Source of the DNA: Escherichia phage P479 | Sequence record: MW269952.1 | Direction: 5' to 3' (one strand) | DNA length: 64,000 nucleotides | In this document: positions 585-60,911 of the stretch, one piece after another | How positions within the stretch are numbered: position 1 is the first letter of the stretch | How the letters are laid out: each line of letters starts with the position of its first letter | Made by a program: the position numbers and the translations under genes | Notes under the pieces: model-generated | Databases searched by the model: none | Seen by the model: only the letters and a program-made list of their open reading frames with translations | What the model was told of the DNA's origin: nothing

Positions 585-622
585 CGCTTTAAAAATTTTA
601 TGTTATAATGGGGTCTAGGTCC
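585..622 (+). promoter_or_regulatory. middle-promoter-like element (variant MotA box cGCTTTA, 14 nt, TATAAT) with conserved downstream GGGGTCTAGGTCC
   Basis: Box at 585-591, TATAAT at 604-609, conserved core 610-622; member of the TATAATGG(T/G)TCTAG family seen at five sites in this window. Confidence 0.4.
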
Positions 623-11853: not shown

Positions 11854-12811
11854 ATAATATACGTTGACTTCCACCAGAGACTGTTCTCCCAGAACCAGTG
11901 AACGTATTGTACAGACTTGTTAATCCAGATTGAGCACCAGACAAGCGGCTCAATTTGGCAACTTCTGAGTTCAAGTTGTTATCTGAACTAATACCAGATA
12001 CACCCTTAATAACCTTATCTTCCAACCATTCCAATGCCGCAGCTCTTCCCACCGCACCAGTTGACATAACGCGATAAGCAAAAGTCACATCAAATGTAGC
12101 TATCTGATTATCCCCTTCATAGCTCAATTCAGGCGCAGATACACTTACAGGAACACAACCAGTTAACATAACAACCGTGTGCGGTAACCCATTACGTGAA
12201 TGAAGGTTAACCTGAATATCAGCTTCAACGTCTTCAGGCAAAGCCCTTAGCTGGGTAACTGGGTCCTGTACAGAGTTAACCCAATCGTTAAATGCTCTGA
12301 AGTTCCCTGCCTCTGAATCCATTCTAAAGCTCAATACCAACGGAGAATATTCTCTCCCGGTTATCTTGATATTTGGTGCATTATGGTTAAGGTCCATTTC
12401 GTAGTTCAATGTGTTATCCGGAAGCTTAACAGAGTGAACTAATAGACCAGCCGTTGGATATGCCATATTAAAGAAATCAAGTAGGTAAGTACCAACCTCA
12501 AATTCCCCCAATAATGATTGCACAACACGGTTACTCATTGCACCGATAAGATATTTGCTTATCCCTGATTTACGAATAAGCTTTTGTGTTCCGGCCGTAA
12601 CAAGAGTTGTTATCCCCTGAGTTAAGTCACCTTGTGTTAATCCGAACCAATCTGAGTTAACAGGAAGGTTACTGAATAATGCACCCCCGAACTGGTCCAG
12701 AAGATTCTGAGATTTGGAGGAAGGCGTGGTCGCGAAGACCACACTAAAAAGGTTATTCCTCTGCAAGTCGATATTAATCGCTTGTGTTTGAAATTCTTGT
12801 AAAGTAAACAT
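11852..12811 (-). CDS. 54: baseplate tail-tube initiator gp54
   Basis: 319 aa (T4 gp54 320 aa); synteny 54-48-29-28-27-51. Confidence 0.8.
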   Translation of the reverse strand: MFTLQEFQTQAINIDLQRNNLFSVVFATTPSSKSQNLLDQFGGALFSNLPVNSDWFGLTQGDLTQGITTLVTAGTQKLIRKSGISKYLIGAMSNRVVQSLLGEFEVGTYLLDFFNMAYPTAGLLVHSVKLPDNTLNYEMDLNHNAPNIKITGREYSPLVLSFRMDSEAGNFRAFNDWVNSVQDPVTQLRALPEDVEADIQVNLHSRNGLPHTVVMLTGCVPVSVSAPELSYEGDNQIATFDVTFAYRVMSTGAVGRAAALEWLEDKVIKGVSGISSDNNLNSEVAKLSRLSGAQSGLTSLYNTFTGSGRTVSGGSQRIL

Positions 12812-19109: not shown

Positions 19110-19146
19110 TGCTTTAATTTTATGGCTGTATAATGGTTCTAGACCC
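19107..19146 (+). promoter_or_regulatory. MotA-box middle promoter upstream of uvsY (equivalent of T4 P_uvsY)
   Basis: aTGCTTTA box 19109-19116, TATAAT 19129-19134, conserved GGTTCTAGACCC 19135-19146; the same position as the classical T4 uvsY middle promoter. Confidence 0.6.
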
Positions 19147-25150: not shown

Positions 25151-25190
25151 TTTTGCTTCAAATAAAAATGCGGTATAATGGTTCTAGACC
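25151..25190 (+). promoter_or_regulatory. MotA-box middle promoter upstream of rnlB
   Basis: TTTGCTTCA box 25151-25159, TATAAT 25173-25178, conserved GGTTCTAGACCCC 25179-25191. Confidence 0.55.
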
Positions 25191-25273: not shown

Positions 25274-26281
25274 ATGTTTAAGAAATACAACAGCCTTGAA
25301 AATCACTATAACAACAAGTTCATTGAAAAGATTCGCCTGCAAGGCTTCACCAGCGGTGAATGGGTAGCTCGCGAGAAGATTCATGGTACCAACTTTTCAT
25401 TAATCATTGAACAAGACAATGTGACATGTGCGAAACGCACTGGACCTATCCTGCCTGCAGAAGATTTCTATGGTTATGAAATTGTACTAAAGAATTATGC
25501 TGATTCTATTAAATCTGTGCAGAAACTTTTGCAGGATATTAATTACCAGGCATACCAGATTTACGGTGAGTTTGCCGGGACAGGTATCCAGAAGAATGTG
25601 GATTACGGTGATAAAGATTTTTATGTATTTGATATCCGCGTTACTAAAGAAGATGGTTTTGAATCCGTCCTGACTGACACACTTATGGAAGCCTTTTGTA
25701 TTATTCATAAGTTTAAAGTTGCCCCGCGCCTGGCTACAGGTAGTTTTGAAGAATTAATTAAGCTACCTAATGACCTGGATTCTGTGGTCCCTGATTACAA
25801 TTTTACAGTGGATAACGCAGGATTGACTACAGCAAATACCACTGATTTTGATGCAAAGGTGGAAGGTAAAGTATTCACTGCTGAAGGATTTGTATTAAAA
25901 CCTGATGTTCCTGCATGGTTACCTAACGGCGAGCGTGTAGCGATTAAATGTAAGAACTCTAAATTCAGTGAAAAGAAAAAGTCTGATAAGCCTATTAAGG
26001 CTGCAGTGGTTCTGAGCCAAAATGATATGGATTTACTGTGGAATTTCACTGATTATGTGACTGTTAACCGTATCAACAATGTTATCAGTAAAATTGGGGA
26101 AGTAACACCGAAGGATTTTGGAAAGGTAATGGGGTTAACAGTTCAAGATATTCTGGAAGAAGCCGGGCGCGAAGGTCTTGAATTGTCCCTGACGGAAAAT
26201 CCTGTTGAAGTTAAAAAGCAACTCATCGCAAATGTAAGAGAAACATTAAGACATGTTTGGATTGCATTAGTTAGTGAATAA
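25274..26281 (+). CDS. rnlB: RNA ligase 2
   Basis: 335 aa; N-terminus [19 protein letters not shown]...[13 protein letters not shown] (ligase KxHGxN-type motif); matches recalled T4 Rnl2. Confidence 0.9.
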
Positions 26282-34024: not shown

Positions 34025-34075
34025 CCCGTAGAACCGATTATGCTTTTATTTATAACACTGTATAATGGTTCTACG
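34025..34075 (+). promoter_or_regulatory. middle-promoter-like cassette (TGCTTTTA box, TATAAT, GGTTCTA) enclosed by a perfect 10-bp inverted repeat, oriented antisense to gene 18
   Basis: Inverted repeat ccgtagaacc (34025-34034) / ggttctacgg (34066-34075); box 34040-34047; TATAAT 34060-34065. The - strand also carries TATAAATA at 34046-34053. Confidence 0.45.
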
Positions 34076-34107
34076 GTTTCTAACTGATTAATTCTAAGCG
34101 ATGATAA

Positions 34108-57610: not shown

Positions 57611-57618
57611 TATAAATA
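57611..57618 (+). promoter_or_regulatory. T4-type late promoter for gene 4
   Basis: tataaata 28 nt upstream of the gene 4 ATG, with RBS aggagg. Confidence 0.55.
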
Positions 57619-57646: not shown

Positions 57647-58099
57647 ATGGCATACTCCGGGAAATGGCAACCTAAAAACGTTGCAAAGTACAAAGGAGAC
57701 TGGAAGAAAATTACCTACAGGTCAAACTGGGAAAAATTTGTATTTAACTGGTTGGATAATCATCCAGATGTGGTGCAATGGGGGTCAGAGACCGTTATCA
57801 TTCCATATTTTAGTAATGCGGATGGTAAAAAACGCAGGTATTACATGGATATGTGGGTAAAATTTTCAAATGGTCAACAATTTTTCTTTGAGGTTAAACC
57901 CAAAAAGGAAACAAGACCTCCAGCAAAACCAGTTAATACGACCGCTGCGAGCAAGAAGAGATTTATGAACGAAATGTATGTTTGGGCTGTTAATTCGGAT
58001 AAATGGAAAGCCGCTCAAGCTGTAGCTGATAAAATGGGCATCCAATTTAGATTGATTACTGAAGATGCACTTAGGAAAATGGGTTATAAGGGTTTATAA
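57647..58099 (+). CDS. 4: head completion protein gp4
   Basis: 150 aa; MAYSGKWQPKNVAKYKGDWKKITYRSNWEKF... matches recalled T4 gp4; divergent from gene 53 as in T4. Confidence 0.75.
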   Translation: MAYSGKWQPKNVAKYKGDWKKITYRSNWEKFVFNWLDNHPDVVQWGSETVIIPYFSNADGKKRRYYMDMWVKFSNGQQFFFEVKPKKETRPPAKPVNTTAASKKRFMNEMYVWAVNSDKWKAAQAVADKMGIQFRLITEDALRKMGYKGL

Positions 58100-58746
58100 T
58101 GTATACGGTATATCAAATAACAAATAAAATTAATAACAAAATTTACATCGGTGTGCACAAAACCGACAATATCGATGACAAGTATATGGGCACAGGGAAA
58201 TTAATATTAAAAGCTCATAAAAAATATGGTATTGAAAATTTTCAAAAGGATATTTTATTTGTTTTTGATTCCATCAATGAATCAGAGAACGAAAATTTAG
58301 CCTTTGCTAAAGAGGCTGATTTAGTCGACCAAGAATTTGTTAATCGGCCCGACACGTACAACATTGATTTGGGTGGTAGAGGCGGTCGCGGCCGCTCCGC
58401 TTCTGTTAGAAAACGTATTGGTGATGCCCAGCGAGGAAAACCTGGTAAAAAACCATCAAAAGAATCTCGTTTAAAAATGAGTTTGGCACACAAGGGTAAA
58501 AAATTATCCGAAGAACATAAGATAAAAATTGGCAATGCTGGCCGTGGTAAAAAGCGTCCTGAAAGTGCAAATGAAGCGGTTAGACAACATTTATTAGGGG
58601 TTCCTCGTAAAGAAGAACATAAAAATAATATGAGAATTGGTTTTCTAAATACACCTACCAAAATATGTCCACACTGTGGATTAGAATGCAAACCAGCCCC
58701 ATTTAAAAGATGGCATGGCGATAATTGCAAAGCGAGGAAAGGATGA
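58099..58746 (+). CDS. GIY-YIG homing endonuclease (Seg-like) inserted between genes 4 and 2
   Basis: N-terminus [19 protein letters not shown] is a GIY-YIG motif; NUMOD3-like repeats; C-terminal CPHCG...HGDNC zinc-finger-like; overlaps the gene 4 stop and gene 2 start. Confidence 0.75.
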
Positions 58747-59570
58747 GTATTTTTACATTTATCAATGAATCTGCAGATAAACCAGGTCCGAAACCCAGTA
58801 AATCAGAACAACAATGGGTTGAAATAGGGGTTGAATTTTATACAGCAAAAGAAAAGGGAATGACCTCGAAGAAGTTTGCTGAAGAGAAAGGAATCAACTA
58901 TTCGACCTTTACCAAAAGCATGTCAAGATATCATTCGAGAATTCAGACTGCTTATAAAGTATCCAAGCTCAAAAAGAAACCTGCCGGTAAACTTACGAAG
59001 GCTGAACGTCAGCTGATAATGGTGAATAGCTTTAGAAAGAGCATAAGAGATAAGATTGCTAACGAAGGCGCTGCAAGCAACACCAAATCTGCCAGATGGT
59101 TCGCTGAGACAATTAAGAAATCAGTTCGTGGTCACGTAACGGCTAAACCTCAACCGGGTAAGATTTATGCTTATATCTATGATGCAAAGCATAAGGATAC
59201 TCTTCCGTACTGGGATAAATATCCGTTAATCATTTATCTTGGGCTAGGTAAGCACAATTTGATGTATGGTTTGAACTTGCACTATATTCCACCGAAGGCA
59301 CGTCAAGAGTTCCTTGAGGAACTTCTTAAGCAATATGCTAATACTCCTACGATTACGAACAAGACTCATCTGAAGATTGATTGGTCAAAGGTGAAGGGAT
59401 TTAAAGGGGCTGACCAGATGATTAAAGCATATATACCTGGCAATATAAAAGGTACTATTACTGAAATCAAGCCCAGCGACTGGGCAAACGTTGTATTACT
59501 CCCCCTTCAGCAGTTTTTTTCAAAAGGCAAAAGATTTTCTTCACAGAAAGTATGGAGAAATTCACTTTGA
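58743..59570 (+). CDS. 2: DNA end protector protein gp2
   Basis: About 275 aa from the internal ATG (T4 gp2 274 aa); synteny 4-2-3-1. Confidence 0.75.
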
Positions 59571-60226
59571 ATTATCAGTTTATATATTCATCGTTAATTG
59601 AAAGGGCCCGTAACAGGGCCCTGATTTCATATAAAGAATCTCATCACATCATTCCGAAATGTATGGGCGGTTCAAATGCTCCGGATAACCTAGTCGATTT
59701 GACTCCCGAAGAACATTATGTAGCCCATCAACTATTGGTTAAAATATATCCTACAAATCCAGGTTTAAGTTTTGCTGCCACATCTATGAGCCAGTCAAGC
59801 AAGTATTTGAAACGCAATAATAAATTATTTGGCTGGTTAAGACGCAGACACGCTGACAATATTTCTAAAAGCCAAACCGGTAAAGTTTACTTTAATAATG
59901 GTGTCAAATCGATAAAACTATTTCCATGGGAAGATGTTCCGGATGGGTTTGTCAAAGGAAGACATTACAGTCCAACCAAGGGTACAAAACATTCTCGCAA
60001 TAATGGACATTTTAAAAATAAAGAGATTCAGGATGAATTGAGAAAGCGCCGGTGGGAAAAAGATAGGCAAGAAATGTGTAAAAACTTCGGAGTTGATACC
60101 ATCGAGCAAGCTCGAGAGTTGGTCCTAGCATATAAAAAGGAATTGCATCCTCGATACTGGGTAAAGCCAATGTTGGAACGTTATCCGTTTATGACTAAGC
60201 TAAGACTTAACACATTAATAAAATAA
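59552..60226 (+). CDS. HNH-family homing endonuclease (Mob-like) inserted between genes 2 and 3
   Basis: [30 protein letters not shown] motif; paralogous to 20422-21207 and to the partial gene at 1-118; overlaps the gene 2 3' end. Confidence 0.7.
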
Positions 60227-60261
60227 TCTATTATCGGTCAGTGTTATTGGTATGGACAAAA

Positions 60262-60298
60262 GGTCTAGAACCATTATAACACTGATTGTTTTAAAGCA
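60262..60298 (-). promoter_or_regulatory. middle-promoter-like element on - strand (TGCTTTA box, TATAAT, GGTTCTAGACC), antisense to the upstream HNH gene
   Basis: Reverse complement reads tttgctttaaaacaatcagtgtTATAATggttctagacc, with the same box-to-TATAAT spacing as the other family members. Confidence 0.4.
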
Positions 60299-60311
60299 AA
60301 CAAGGCGCACT

Positions 60312-60911
60312 ATGTCAGGTTTATATAATCAAACTAACACGACTAACTTTATATTAGAGGTAAGCGATTCAAACCTCACACAGACCTTTAAACTCAACGT
60401 TCAAGACGTTACCCTCCCAGGAGTTCACATTCCTGTGACGGATGTCCCTGGGGGAACACAAGGTATAAATCGCTCCAGTCTTCCTGGTAGTACAATAGAA
60501 TTCGACCCGCTGATTGTTAACTTTCTGTGTGACAAAGACCTAAGAGCGTGGCTTGACATCTATAAATGGATGCTCTCGCTCAACAACTACATCACACACG
60601 AATCAAAAGCATGGCATCCGAAAGGTCGTCCCGAAGCGGTCACGCTTCATATCTTAGATAACAACAAGGACAAAATTGTCATGTCAATCCATTACTATGG
60701 AGCATGGCCGTCCGACCTGTCAGAGATTCAGTATTCATATAAAGAAGATTCTGACCCGGCCATCAATGCAACAGCGACTTTTAACTTTAAGTCTTTTGCT
60801 GTAGAAATTGATGGTATAATAATAGAAGGTAGACCACAGATTGATAGTAATGCAACAATGCAACAGGAAATCAGGTCTAAGTCAATGCATCCATCTATGA
60901 GAAACGTATGA
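60312..60911 (+). CDS. 3: tail completion / sheath terminator protein gp3
   Basis: ORF 60252-60911; start placed at the internal ATG 60312 (uncertain); synteny between 2 and 1. Confidence 0.6.
   Translation: MSGLYNQTNTTNFILEVSDSNLTQTFKLNVQDVTLPGVHIPVTDVPGGTQGINRSSLPGSTIEFDPLIVNFLCDKDLRAWLDIYKWMLSLNNYITHESKAWHPKGRPEAVTLHILDNNKDKIVMSIHYYGAWPSDLSEIQYSYKEDSDPAINATATFNFKSFAVEIDGIIIEGRPQIDSNATMQQEIRSKSMHPSMRNV

What the first reader, a model, noticed from the sequence alone, without database searches (positions are those of the whole stretch)
60262..60298. Same promoter-like core on the minus strand between the HNH endonuclease gene and gene 3, directed antisense into the HNH gene
Seen: the reverse complement reads tttgctttaaaacaatcagtgtTATAATggttctagacc. 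The element lies between the HNH stop (60226) and the proposed gene 3 start (60312) and points leftwards, opposite to the local 2-HNH-3 transcription direction. Inference: either an antisense regulator of the homing endonuclease or a relic that marks the insertion junction of the mobile HNH gene.
Basis: partly seen in the sequence, partly recalled or inferred. Interest (0 to 1): 0.5.

Follow-up and report, generated by a model that had tools for sequence, protein, structure and literature searches.

The report
Conserved backward-facing T4-type middle promoter
The flagged sequence is a near-perfect T4-type "middle" promoter facing backwards between tail gene 3 and the gene upstream of it; it is older than the mobile HNH gene next to it, is kept in many T4-like phages including T4 itself, and probably makes an antisense RNA that nobody seems to have studied.

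Summary
On the minus strand, 60301-60262 reads GTTTGCTTTA-N13-(TGt)TATAAT-GGTTCTAGACC. That is a MotA box, 13-bp spacing, an extended -10 and a perfect -10, the signature of a T4 MotA/AsiA middle promoter. The window is a Gaprivervirus (VR7/SP18-like T4 relative).

With a weight matrix built from mapped T4 middle promoters it scores 21.0 bits, the only strong hit on that strand (next 13.5).

Relatives without the HNH gene keep the 85-bp spacer unchanged apart from two base substitutions outside the promoter. The HNH insertion (about 59565-60223) ends 40 bp or more away. So the element is neither a junction relic nor an HNH-specific regulator.

An orthologous backward promoter lies upstream of gene 3 in at least 11 lineages, including T4 (75965-75993, 24.6 bits) and RB69. 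The boxes are conserved and the spacer varies.

T4, RB69 and Gaprivervirus share a second backward site in the srd/modA spacer. Neither is among T4's 58 mapped middle promoters. RB69's copy appears only in a 2006 supplementary prediction list.

Best reading: a real promoter starting near 60266 that makes a non-coding antisense RNA opposing rightward read-through in the middle period. Activity and role are inferred, not shown.

The parts
60292..60301 (-). MotA box GTTTGCTTTA. The 9-nt consensus (a/t)(a/t)TGCTT(t/c)A is matched perfectly at 60300-60292. Its complement directly abuts the gp3 Shine-Dalgarno.
   Evidence: Sequence. Consensus from Hinton 2010, PMC2988021. The T-G-C-T core is kept in 11-13 of 13 lineages.
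60279..60291 (-). 13-nt spacer AAACAATCAGTGT, ending in the extended -10 TGn (TGT, 60281-60279).
   Evidence: Spacing of 12+/-1 is required. The spacer sequence varies between lineages (4-8 of 13 identical per position) while its length stays 11-13.
60273..60278 (-). -10 hexamer TATAAT.
   Evidence: Each position is identical in 12-13 of 13 lineages.
60262..60272 (-). Discriminator plus start region GGTTCTAGACC. Predicted start is the A at 60266, 7 nt after the -10. This core is shared with the PuvsY and PrnlB homologues.
   Evidence: Exact 17-mer repeats. In T4 PnrdC.7 (TATAATGGTTCT-A) and PuvsY the mapped start is 7 nt after the -10.
59471..60266 (-). Predicted non-coding antisense transcript across the HNH gene. 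Its 3' end is unknown. The first terminator-like hairpin on this strand is at 59485-59471, inside the gene 2 3' end.
   Evidence: Inference from the promoter. Terminator-like site. No conserved antisense ORF.
60235..60288 (+). Strong stem-loop in the sense (4-2-HNH-3) RNA. Its 3' arm is the complement of the -10 and start region.
   Evidence: -25.2 kcal/mol, z = -4.4. A hairpin in the same position but with different sequence is seen in Dhakavirus, RB69 and T4.
60224..60235 (+). Conserved block TAATCTATTATC, comprising the stop codon used by HNH here and by gene 2 in HNH-less relatives plus 9 nt. Function unknown.
   Evidence: Conserved as TAAT(T)CTATTATC in T4, Dhakavirus and Gaprivervirus, and nearly so in RB69.
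59565..60223 (+). Inserted Mob-type HNH homing-endonuclease cassette. The ORF 59552-60226 borrows its start region and its stop codon from the gene 2 3' end.
   Evidence: Alignments with SP18 (no HNH) and VR7. 48-58% identity to the N-terminal regions of T4 MobB and MobE. Homologues of 62-65% identity occupy the same site in Dhakavirus L016 and Serratia phage X20.
60302..60314 (+). gp3 Shine-Dalgarno AAGG (60302-60305) and ATG (60312-60314), back-to-back with the MotA box.
   Evidence: The distance from MotA box to ATG is 10-14 nt in most lineages.
19129..19145 (+). Paralogous copy of the exact core at the uvsY promoter homologue. In T4 this promoter is the oriF promoter.
25174..25190 (+). Paralogous copy of the exact core upstream of the rnlB-like ORF (25274-26281).

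Best explanation
The element is an ancestral, functional MotA/AsiA-dependent ('middle') promoter. It sits back-to-back with the gene 3 ribosome-binding site and fires leftwards, against the 4-seg-2-HNH-3 direction.

Proposed mechanism:
1. A few minutes after infection, AsiA-remodelled sigma70 RNA polymerase binds the TGn/TATAAT and MotA binds the TTTGCTTTA box.
2. Transcription starts at about 60266 and produces an untranslated RNA. This RNA is antisense to the 3' part of the upstream gene: HNH in this phage, gene 2 in relatives without HNH.
3. Most likely role: during the prereplicative period this convergent transcription and the antisense RNA dampen or truncate rightward read-through transcripts that would otherwise express late genes 4 and 2 too early (and, incidentally, the HNH gene).
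4. The brake lifts when middle promoters shut off and the late promoter before gene 4 (TATAAATA, 57611-57618) takes over.

Shown here: the promoter anatomy, its statistical strength, its orientation, its independence from the HNH insertion, and its conservation across genera.
Inferred: activity in vivo, MotA dependence, transcript length and the regulatory role.
For: Anatomy:
- MotA box, 13 bp, TGn, TATAAT, matching the consensus in Hinton 2010.
- 21.0 bits on a matrix from mapped T4 middle promoters.
- In T4, 22 of 23 sites scoring 18 bits or more on the early/middle strand are mapped promoters.

Conservation:
- At least 11 distinct lineages have a 10.7-24.6-bit site on the antisense strand upstream of gp3. 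The sense strand of the same spacers scores -7 to +7.
- The boxes are conserved and the spacer sequence is not.
- T4's orthologue (75965-75993, + strand, 24.6 bits) scores as high as the best known promoter, PuvsY.

Genome-wide specificity:
- The 'wrong' strand of T4 has only two sites above 15 bits, the 2/3 spacer and the srd/modA spacer.
- The same two top that strand in the Gaprivervirus TH22.
- The srd/modA site is also present in RB69 and VR7.

Cofactors: VR7 encodes motA and asiA.

Independence from HNH.

Non-coding product: no conserved antisense ORF.

Plausibility of read-through: T4 early repEA/repEB transcripts run the same way upstream, per the AF158101 annotation. No + strand late promoter lies between 57618 and gp3.
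Against: - No transcript data are available for this phage.
- The T4 orthologue is absent from the 58 experimentally mapped middle promoters. Reviews state that all early and middle T4 transcripts are counterclockwise. It may have been tested and found silent, or simply never tested.
- The spacer, and the element with it, is lost where gp2 abuts gp3 (L025-L028), so it is dispensable in some lineages.
- In Gaprivervirus and Dhakavirus the -10 lies inside a strong sense-strand hairpin, which could account for part of the local conservation.
- The HNH insertion moves the antisense RNA's original target, gene 2, about 660 nt away in several lineages without obvious harm. This argues against a precise base-pairing target.
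Confidence: 0.5

Rival explanations
1. The promoter is real, but its job is DNA-level. It would form an R-loop or primer for replication or recombination, as the middle promoters PuvsY (oriF) and P34i (oriG) do, rather than regulate by antisense.
For: - It shares the post -10 sequence with PuvsY in the same genome: an identical 17-mer in the window, TCTAAGTCC in T4, and the same pattern in RB69-like and CC31-like lineages.
- P34i/oriG is a precedent for a middle promoter lying antisense inside a late gene (annotation).
- The two backward T4 sites lie 3-5 kb from oriE and oriA and point towards them.
Against: [quoted passage not shown]
- Downstream A+T content is unremarkable and does not even distinguish the known origins.
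- The co-variation of the start region with PuvsY is not significant over 8 lineages (p = 0.17).
Confidence: 0.15
2. The conservation serves the sense-strand RNA, for example the hairpin after gene 2, a processing site, or gene 3 translation control. On this view the resemblance to a promoter on the other strand is incidental.
For: - A strong stem-loop follows gene 2 in the sense RNA in every lineage folded (z = -3.2 to -4.4; T4 -1.7).
- The MotA-box complement abuts the gp3 Shine-Dalgarno.
- The conserved TAATCTATTATC block is unexplained.
Against: - In T4, RB69 and CC31-like phages the hairpin lies entirely outside the -10 and the MotA box, yet both boxes are conserved.
- The conserved positions are exactly those read by sigma70 region 2 and MotA, at the required 11-13 bp spacing, while the bases between them drift.
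- The same architecture recurs in the unrelated srd/modA spacer.
Confidence: 0.12
3. A chance sigma70-like match with no function.
For: AT-rich phage DNA yields many weak -10/-35 matches; 28 were found against 23.7 expected in the local region.
Against: - 21 bits, unique on its strand.
- Orthologous sites in at least 11 lineages.
- Exact 17-mer repeats occur far above expectation.
Confidence: 0.04
4. One reading: a dedicated antisense regulator of the homing endonuclease, or a relic marking the HNH insertion junction.
For: In this phage the predicted RNA does run antisense through the HNH gene.
Against: - The promoter is base-for-base identical in HNH-less relatives, and orthologues exist in phages without this HNH.
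- The junction is 40 bp or more away, at the gene 2 stop codon.
Confidence: 0.04

Closest known systems
T4 MotA/AsiA-dependent middle promoters, especially PuvsY, PnrdC.7 and P1
   Same: MotA box, 12+/-1 bp spacing, TGn and TATAAT. The post -10 sequence (TATAAT-GGTTCTA..) is as in PnrdC.7 and PuvsY. The score lies within the top third of mapped promoters.
   Different: It points opposite to every one of the 58 mapped T4 middle promoters as I extracted them (all read from the counterclockwise strand). It has no gene downstream, only the antisense of gene 2 or HNH.
T4 P34i / oriG
   Same: A middle promoter embedded among late genes and transcribing antisense to a late gene. Its product is a non-coding RNA.
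   Different: P34i has the usual counterclockwise polarity, lies inside a coding region and has proven origin activity. Origin activity was not tested for this element.
RB69 predicted middle promoter Pm:79256 (Nolan et al. 2006, Virol J 3:30, additional file 4)
   Same: This is the direct orthologue: + strand, between RB69 genes 3 and 2, HMM score 16.3.
   Different: It is only a line in a supplementary prediction table. It is not discussed or tested, and its conservation across genera was not noted.
PeSL cassettes (promoter-early stem-loop) of T4-type phages; recalled from my own knowledge of Arbiol et al. 2010, not checked here
   Same: A short promoter-plus-hairpin module with near-identical copies at several places in one genome.
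   Different: Those carry early promoters and flank variable ORFs. This is a middle promoter at a fixed, syntenic position, and only about 17 nt are repeated.

Membership tests
T4-type MotA/AsiA middle promoter | MotA box (a/t)(a/t)(a/t)TGCTTtA centred near -30 | tested here: met
   GTTTGCTTTA at 60301-60292. This is 9 of 10 positions, and a perfect match to the 9-nt form.
T4-type MotA/AsiA middle promoter | Excellent sigma70 -10 (TAtaaT), often with extended -10 TGn | tested here: met
   TGT-TATAAT at 60281-60273.
T4-type MotA/AsiA middle promoter | 12+/-1 bp between the MotA box and the -10 | tested here: met
   13 bp here; 11-13 bp in all 13 lineages.
T4-type MotA/AsiA middle promoter | The phage encodes MotA and AsiA | tested here: met
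   The genes are not in the window. The close relative VR7 (93% identity in this region) has annotated motA and asiA.
T4-type MotA/AsiA middle promoter | MotA- and AsiA-dependent transcript start in infected cells or in vitro | not testable with these tools
   A T4 dRNA-seq start-site table exists (bioRxiv 10.1101/2024.04.04.588121; 150 starts, 22 antisense) but is not held as text.
T4-type MotA/AsiA middle promoter | Same polarity as early genes. This is a stated generalisation, not a mechanistic requirement. | tested here: not met
   It is on the opposite strand to all other strong sites in the window, T4 and TH22 (review statement).
R-loop replication origin (oriF/oriG type) | Middle promoter plus a downstream DNA-unwinding element | tested here: inconclusive
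   The promoter is present. Downstream A+T is 70% (90th-95th percentile in the window), but this measure does not separate the known T4 origins from background.
R-loop replication origin (oriF/oriG type) | Persistent RNA-DNA hybrid, or autonomous replication of a cloned fragment | not testable with these tools
   This needs an experiment.
Homing-endonuclease insertion scar or cassette component | Present only with, and adjacent to, the inserted gene | tested here: not met
   The spacer is the same apart from two substitutions, and the promoter identical, in HNH-less SP18 and VR20. The junction is 40 bp or more away.
Known RNA family (Rfam) | Match to a curated covariance model | tested here: not met
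   Only sub-threshold noise in 59400-60500.

The most novel reading that the evidence does not exclude
T4-like phages may keep a small, conserved class of backward-facing middle promoters, so far unstudied. There are two per genome, in the gene 2/3 spacer and the srd/modA spacer.

Both have an unusually complete consensus and share a start-region motif (TATAAT-GGTTyTAGGTCC, +1A) with the oriF promoter PuvsY.

They would be timed antisense switches. One would shut off the toxic early ADP-ribosyltransferase genes modA and modB. The other would gate late genes 4 and 2, which sit in the early orientation.

Alternatively, they could supply clockwise R-loop primers near oriA and oriE.

Either reading would overturn the textbook rule that all prereplicative T4 transcription runs counterclockwise.
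Probability: 0.3. Interest if true: 0.7.

Novelty: new member of a known kind. Interest (0 to 1): 0.5.

Why it matters
T4 is the reference system for timed phage transcription. Reviews state that every early and middle transcript runs one way.

A consensus-grade MotA promoter facing the other way is conserved from T4 to RB69, Dhakavirus, Gaprivervirus and beyond, and it is paired with a second one antisense to modA. This points to deliberate antisense or convergent transcription in the middle period, a regulatory layer missing from current T4 maps.

It can be tested directly with dRNA-seq data that already exist and with simple -10 mutants.

For annotation, it shows that the HNH gene here is an intruder next to an older control element, not the reason that element exists.

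Tried and rejected
- Rfam scan of 59400-60500: only noise.
- BLAST of the whole element against T4 and the window, to find a longer repeated cassette: only the ~17-nt core recurs.
- Search for a conserved antisense ORF in gene 2 (T4, RB69, SP18, Dhakavirus): none at a shared position.
- Fold of the predicted antisense RNA 5' region in the window: not significant (z = -0.7).
- Test of lineage-specific co-variation between the start regions of this promoter and PuvsY: striking in four lineages, but the permutation test over eight gives p = 0.17, so the claim is dropped to 'suggestive'.
- A+T-rich unwinding element downstream: uninformative.
- A late promoter on the sense strand of the spacer: none; the nearest TATAAATA is at 57611.
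- Literature: seven full-text searches found no description of a clockwise middle promoter or of an antisense RNA at genes 2/3. Miller 2003 and Vaiskunaite 1999 are not held. The T4 dRNA-seq start-site table is not held.
- The generic sigma70 scan did not list the element, because its -35 region is a MotA box and not TTGACA.

Full report
**What the window is**

Region 57-62 kb is the T4-type block gp53 (minus strand), then on the plus strand gp4, a GIY-YIG seg-like ORF, gp2, a Mob-type HNH, gp3, gp1, 57A and 57B. Megablast places it in Gaprivervirus at 93-98% identity to VR7, VR25, TH22 and SP18. The plus strand of the window corresponds to the counterclockwise, early/middle strand of T4.

**Checking the observation**

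The quoted string is present on the minus strand at 60262-60300. It is more than a -10 core:
- GTTTGCTTTA (60301-60292) matches the MotA box (a/t)(a/t)TGCTT(t/c)A.
- A 13-bp spacer ending in TGn follows.
- Then comes TATAAT (60278-60273).

These features and the 12+/-1 bp spacing define T4 middle promoters (Hinton 2010, PMC2988021).

Statistics:
- TGCTT-N12-16-TATAAT occurs 6 times against 0.46 expected, five on the plus strand and this one on the minus strand.
- The 17-mer TATAATGGTTCTAGACC occurs three times exactly, at the uvsY promoter homologue (19129), upstream of rnlB (25174) and here.

**Scoring against real promoters**

I rebuilt T4 (AF158101) and extracted the 58 mapped middle promoters from Hinton's Table 1. 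I built a weight matrix from the 37 that aligned cleanly.
- Known promoters score up to 24.0 bits (PuvsY).
- On the T4 early/middle strand, 22 of 23 sites scoring 18 bits or more coincide with a mapped start. The matrix was trained on these promoters, so this mainly shows that false hits at such scores are rare.
- The window element scores 21.0 bits. The next minus-strand hit scores 13.5.

**Relation to the HNH gene**

Alignment with SP18 (no HNH) and VR7 (with HNH) puts the insertion at about 59565-60223.
- The HNH ORF starts inside the gene 2 3' end and reuses the old gene 2 stop codon.
- The whole 85-bp spacer to the right is the same in HNH-less phages except for two substitutions (60253 and 60306). 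The promoter itself is identical.
- Homologous HNH genes (62-65% identity) occupy the same site in a Dhakavirus contig (L016) and in Serratia phage X20. This is typical homing into a conserved target.
- The element therefore predates the insertion.

The ATG at 60252 is a private base change, and VR7 has a frameshifting indel downstream of it. So gp3 starts at 60312 and the element is intergenic.

**Conservation**

I examined gp3-anchored loci from T4, RB69, Dhakavirus, X20 and 44 IMG/VR contigs.
- At least 11 distinct lineages have a site of 10.7-24.6 bits on the antisense strand within 150 nt upstream of gp3. The sense strand of the same DNA scores -7 to +7.
- Across 13 representatives, the TGCT core of the MotA box is kept in 11-13 and each -10 position in 12-13. 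The first eight spacer positions agree in only 4-8. Spacer length stays 11-13. This is the conservation pattern of a promoter.
- The site is absent where gp2 abuts gp3 (L025-L028) and in RB49-like contigs. It is weak in 44RR-like Aeromonas phages.

The T4 orthologue lies at 75965-75993 on the plus (clockwise) strand: TAATGCTTTA-13-TATAAT-GGGTCTAAGTCC, 24.6 bits. That is at least as good as any mapped T4 middle promoter.

**A second backward promoter**

On the clockwise strand of T4 only two sites exceed 15 bits: the 2/3 spacer, and 11863-11890 in the srd/modA spacer (24.0 bits), which points antisense into modA. The next best scores 14.3.
- The srd/modA site is conserved in RB69 and in VR7.
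- In the complete genome of the Gaprivervirus TH22, the early/middle strand has 33 sites of 15 bits or more. The other strand has 5, and the top two are again the 2/3 and srd/modA spacers.

**What is known**

- Hinton's list has no promoter between P1 (75393) and PrnlB (109763), and none at 11.9 kb.
- Geiduschek and Kassavetis state that all early and middle transcripts are counterclockwise.
- Kreuzer and Brister state that there is no middle-mode promoter near oriE.
- Nolan et al. 2006 list RB69 Pm:79256 (+, score 16.3) and Pm:12081 (+, 7.9) in a supplementary table. These are the two orthologues, and the text does not comment on them.
- A recent T4 dRNA-seq study reports 150 phage transcription starts, 22 of them antisense, but the table is not available to me.

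The element is thus a predicted but unstudied member of a known promoter class.

**Surroundings**

- In the sense RNA a strong hairpin follows the gene 2/HNH stop: -25.2 kcal/mol, z = -4.4 in the window.
- Comparable hairpins with different sequences occur in Dhakavirus and RB69, and a weaker one in T4.
- In Gaprivervirus and Dhakavirus the hairpin's 3' arm includes the complement of the -10. In T4 and RB69 it lies wholly downstream of the predicted antisense start. The hairpin therefore cannot explain conservation of the promoter boxes.
- The only plus-strand late promoter consensus near here is before gp4 (57611-57618). Late gp3 mRNA must therefore pass through the spacer.
- No conserved ORF lies on the antisense strand, and no Rfam family matches.

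**Mechanism**

Shown: a consensus middle promoter with the correct cofactors encoded by a close relative. It is oriented against the local operon, is conserved, and predates the HNH gene.

Inferred: it fires in the middle period from about 60266 and produces a non-coding RNA antisense to HNH and gene 2.

My preferred role is a timed brake on prereplicative read-through into late genes that happen to lie in the early orientation.
- T4 annotation shows early repEA/repEB transcription heading the same way just upstream.
- The sister site opposite modA, an early gene, would fit the same antisense shut-off logic.

Weaknesses:
- There are no RNA data.
- The T4 site is absent from the mapped lists.
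- The site has been lost in one lineage.
- The HNH insertion is tolerated although it displaces the original target.

The main rival is an oriF-like R-loop function. It is prompted by the start-region motif shared with PuvsY. That co-variation is not statistically significant (p = 0.17), and the A+T test is uninformative.

**Verdict**

It is a new, conserved, oddly oriented member of the MotA middle-promoter class and is of moderate interest.

Noticed in passing
T4 AF158101 11863-11890 (+); RB69 NC_004928 ~12081-12122 (+; L090 782-823); VR7 L091 ~1657-1700; TH22 147998-147971: A second conserved backward-facing consensus middle promoter lies in the srd/modA spacer and points antisense into modA. 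It carries the same TATAAT-GGTTCT/GAATCT start-region motif. It is not in the list of mapped T4 middle promoters.
   Followed up: partly
window 19129-19145 (+), 25174-25190 (+), 60262-60278 (-); also 34061-34073 (+), 604-620 (+): The post -10 sequence GGTTCTAGACC is shared by a subset of middle-type promoters (uvsY, rnlB, 2/3 antisense, 18/19 spacer). T4 has the analogous TCTAAGTCC at PuvsY, the 2/3 spacer and the srd/modA spacer, and TCTAAGCCC at PnrdC.7. The reason for this conserved start region is unexplained. Lineage-specific co-variation is suggestive but not significant (p = 0.17).
   Followed up: partly
window 34026-34076: In the gene 18/19 spacer a plus-strand middle-like promoter (34038-34066, 12.0 bits) overlaps a minus-strand late promoter TATAAATA (34047-34054). 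It is flanked by a 10-bp inverted repeat, CCGTAGAACC / GGTTCTACGG.
   Followed up: no
window 58099-58746: A GIY-YIG seg-like ORF sits between gp4 and gp2. It is absent from SP18 and VR7, where gp4 abuts gp2. Gene 2 is therefore flanked by two different homing-endonuclease genes in this phage.
   Followed up: partly
window 59552-59570 and 60220-60226: The HNH ORF overlaps the last codons of gene 2 and ends on what is the gene 2 stop codon in HNH-less relatives. Gene 2 gains one extra C-terminal residue (..WRNSL instead of ..WRNS). Homologous HNH genes occupy the identical site in Dhakavirus L016 and Serratia phage X20.
   Followed up: yes
window 60224-60235: The block TAATCTATTATC, directly after the gene 2/HNH stop, is conserved from T4 to Gaprivervirus for no identified reason. 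It may be an RNA processing site next to the hairpin, or part of the homing target.
   Followed up: no
window 60794-60820 (+): An 18.5-bit middle-type promoter inside the 3' end of gp3 is the likely counterpart of T4 P1, driving gene 1 (dNMP kinase).
   Followed up: no
window 60252: The upstream in-frame ATG that extends the gp3 ORF to 219 aa is a single-base difference private to this genome (AAG in SP18 and VR7). It would mislead automatic gene callers.
   Followed up: yes
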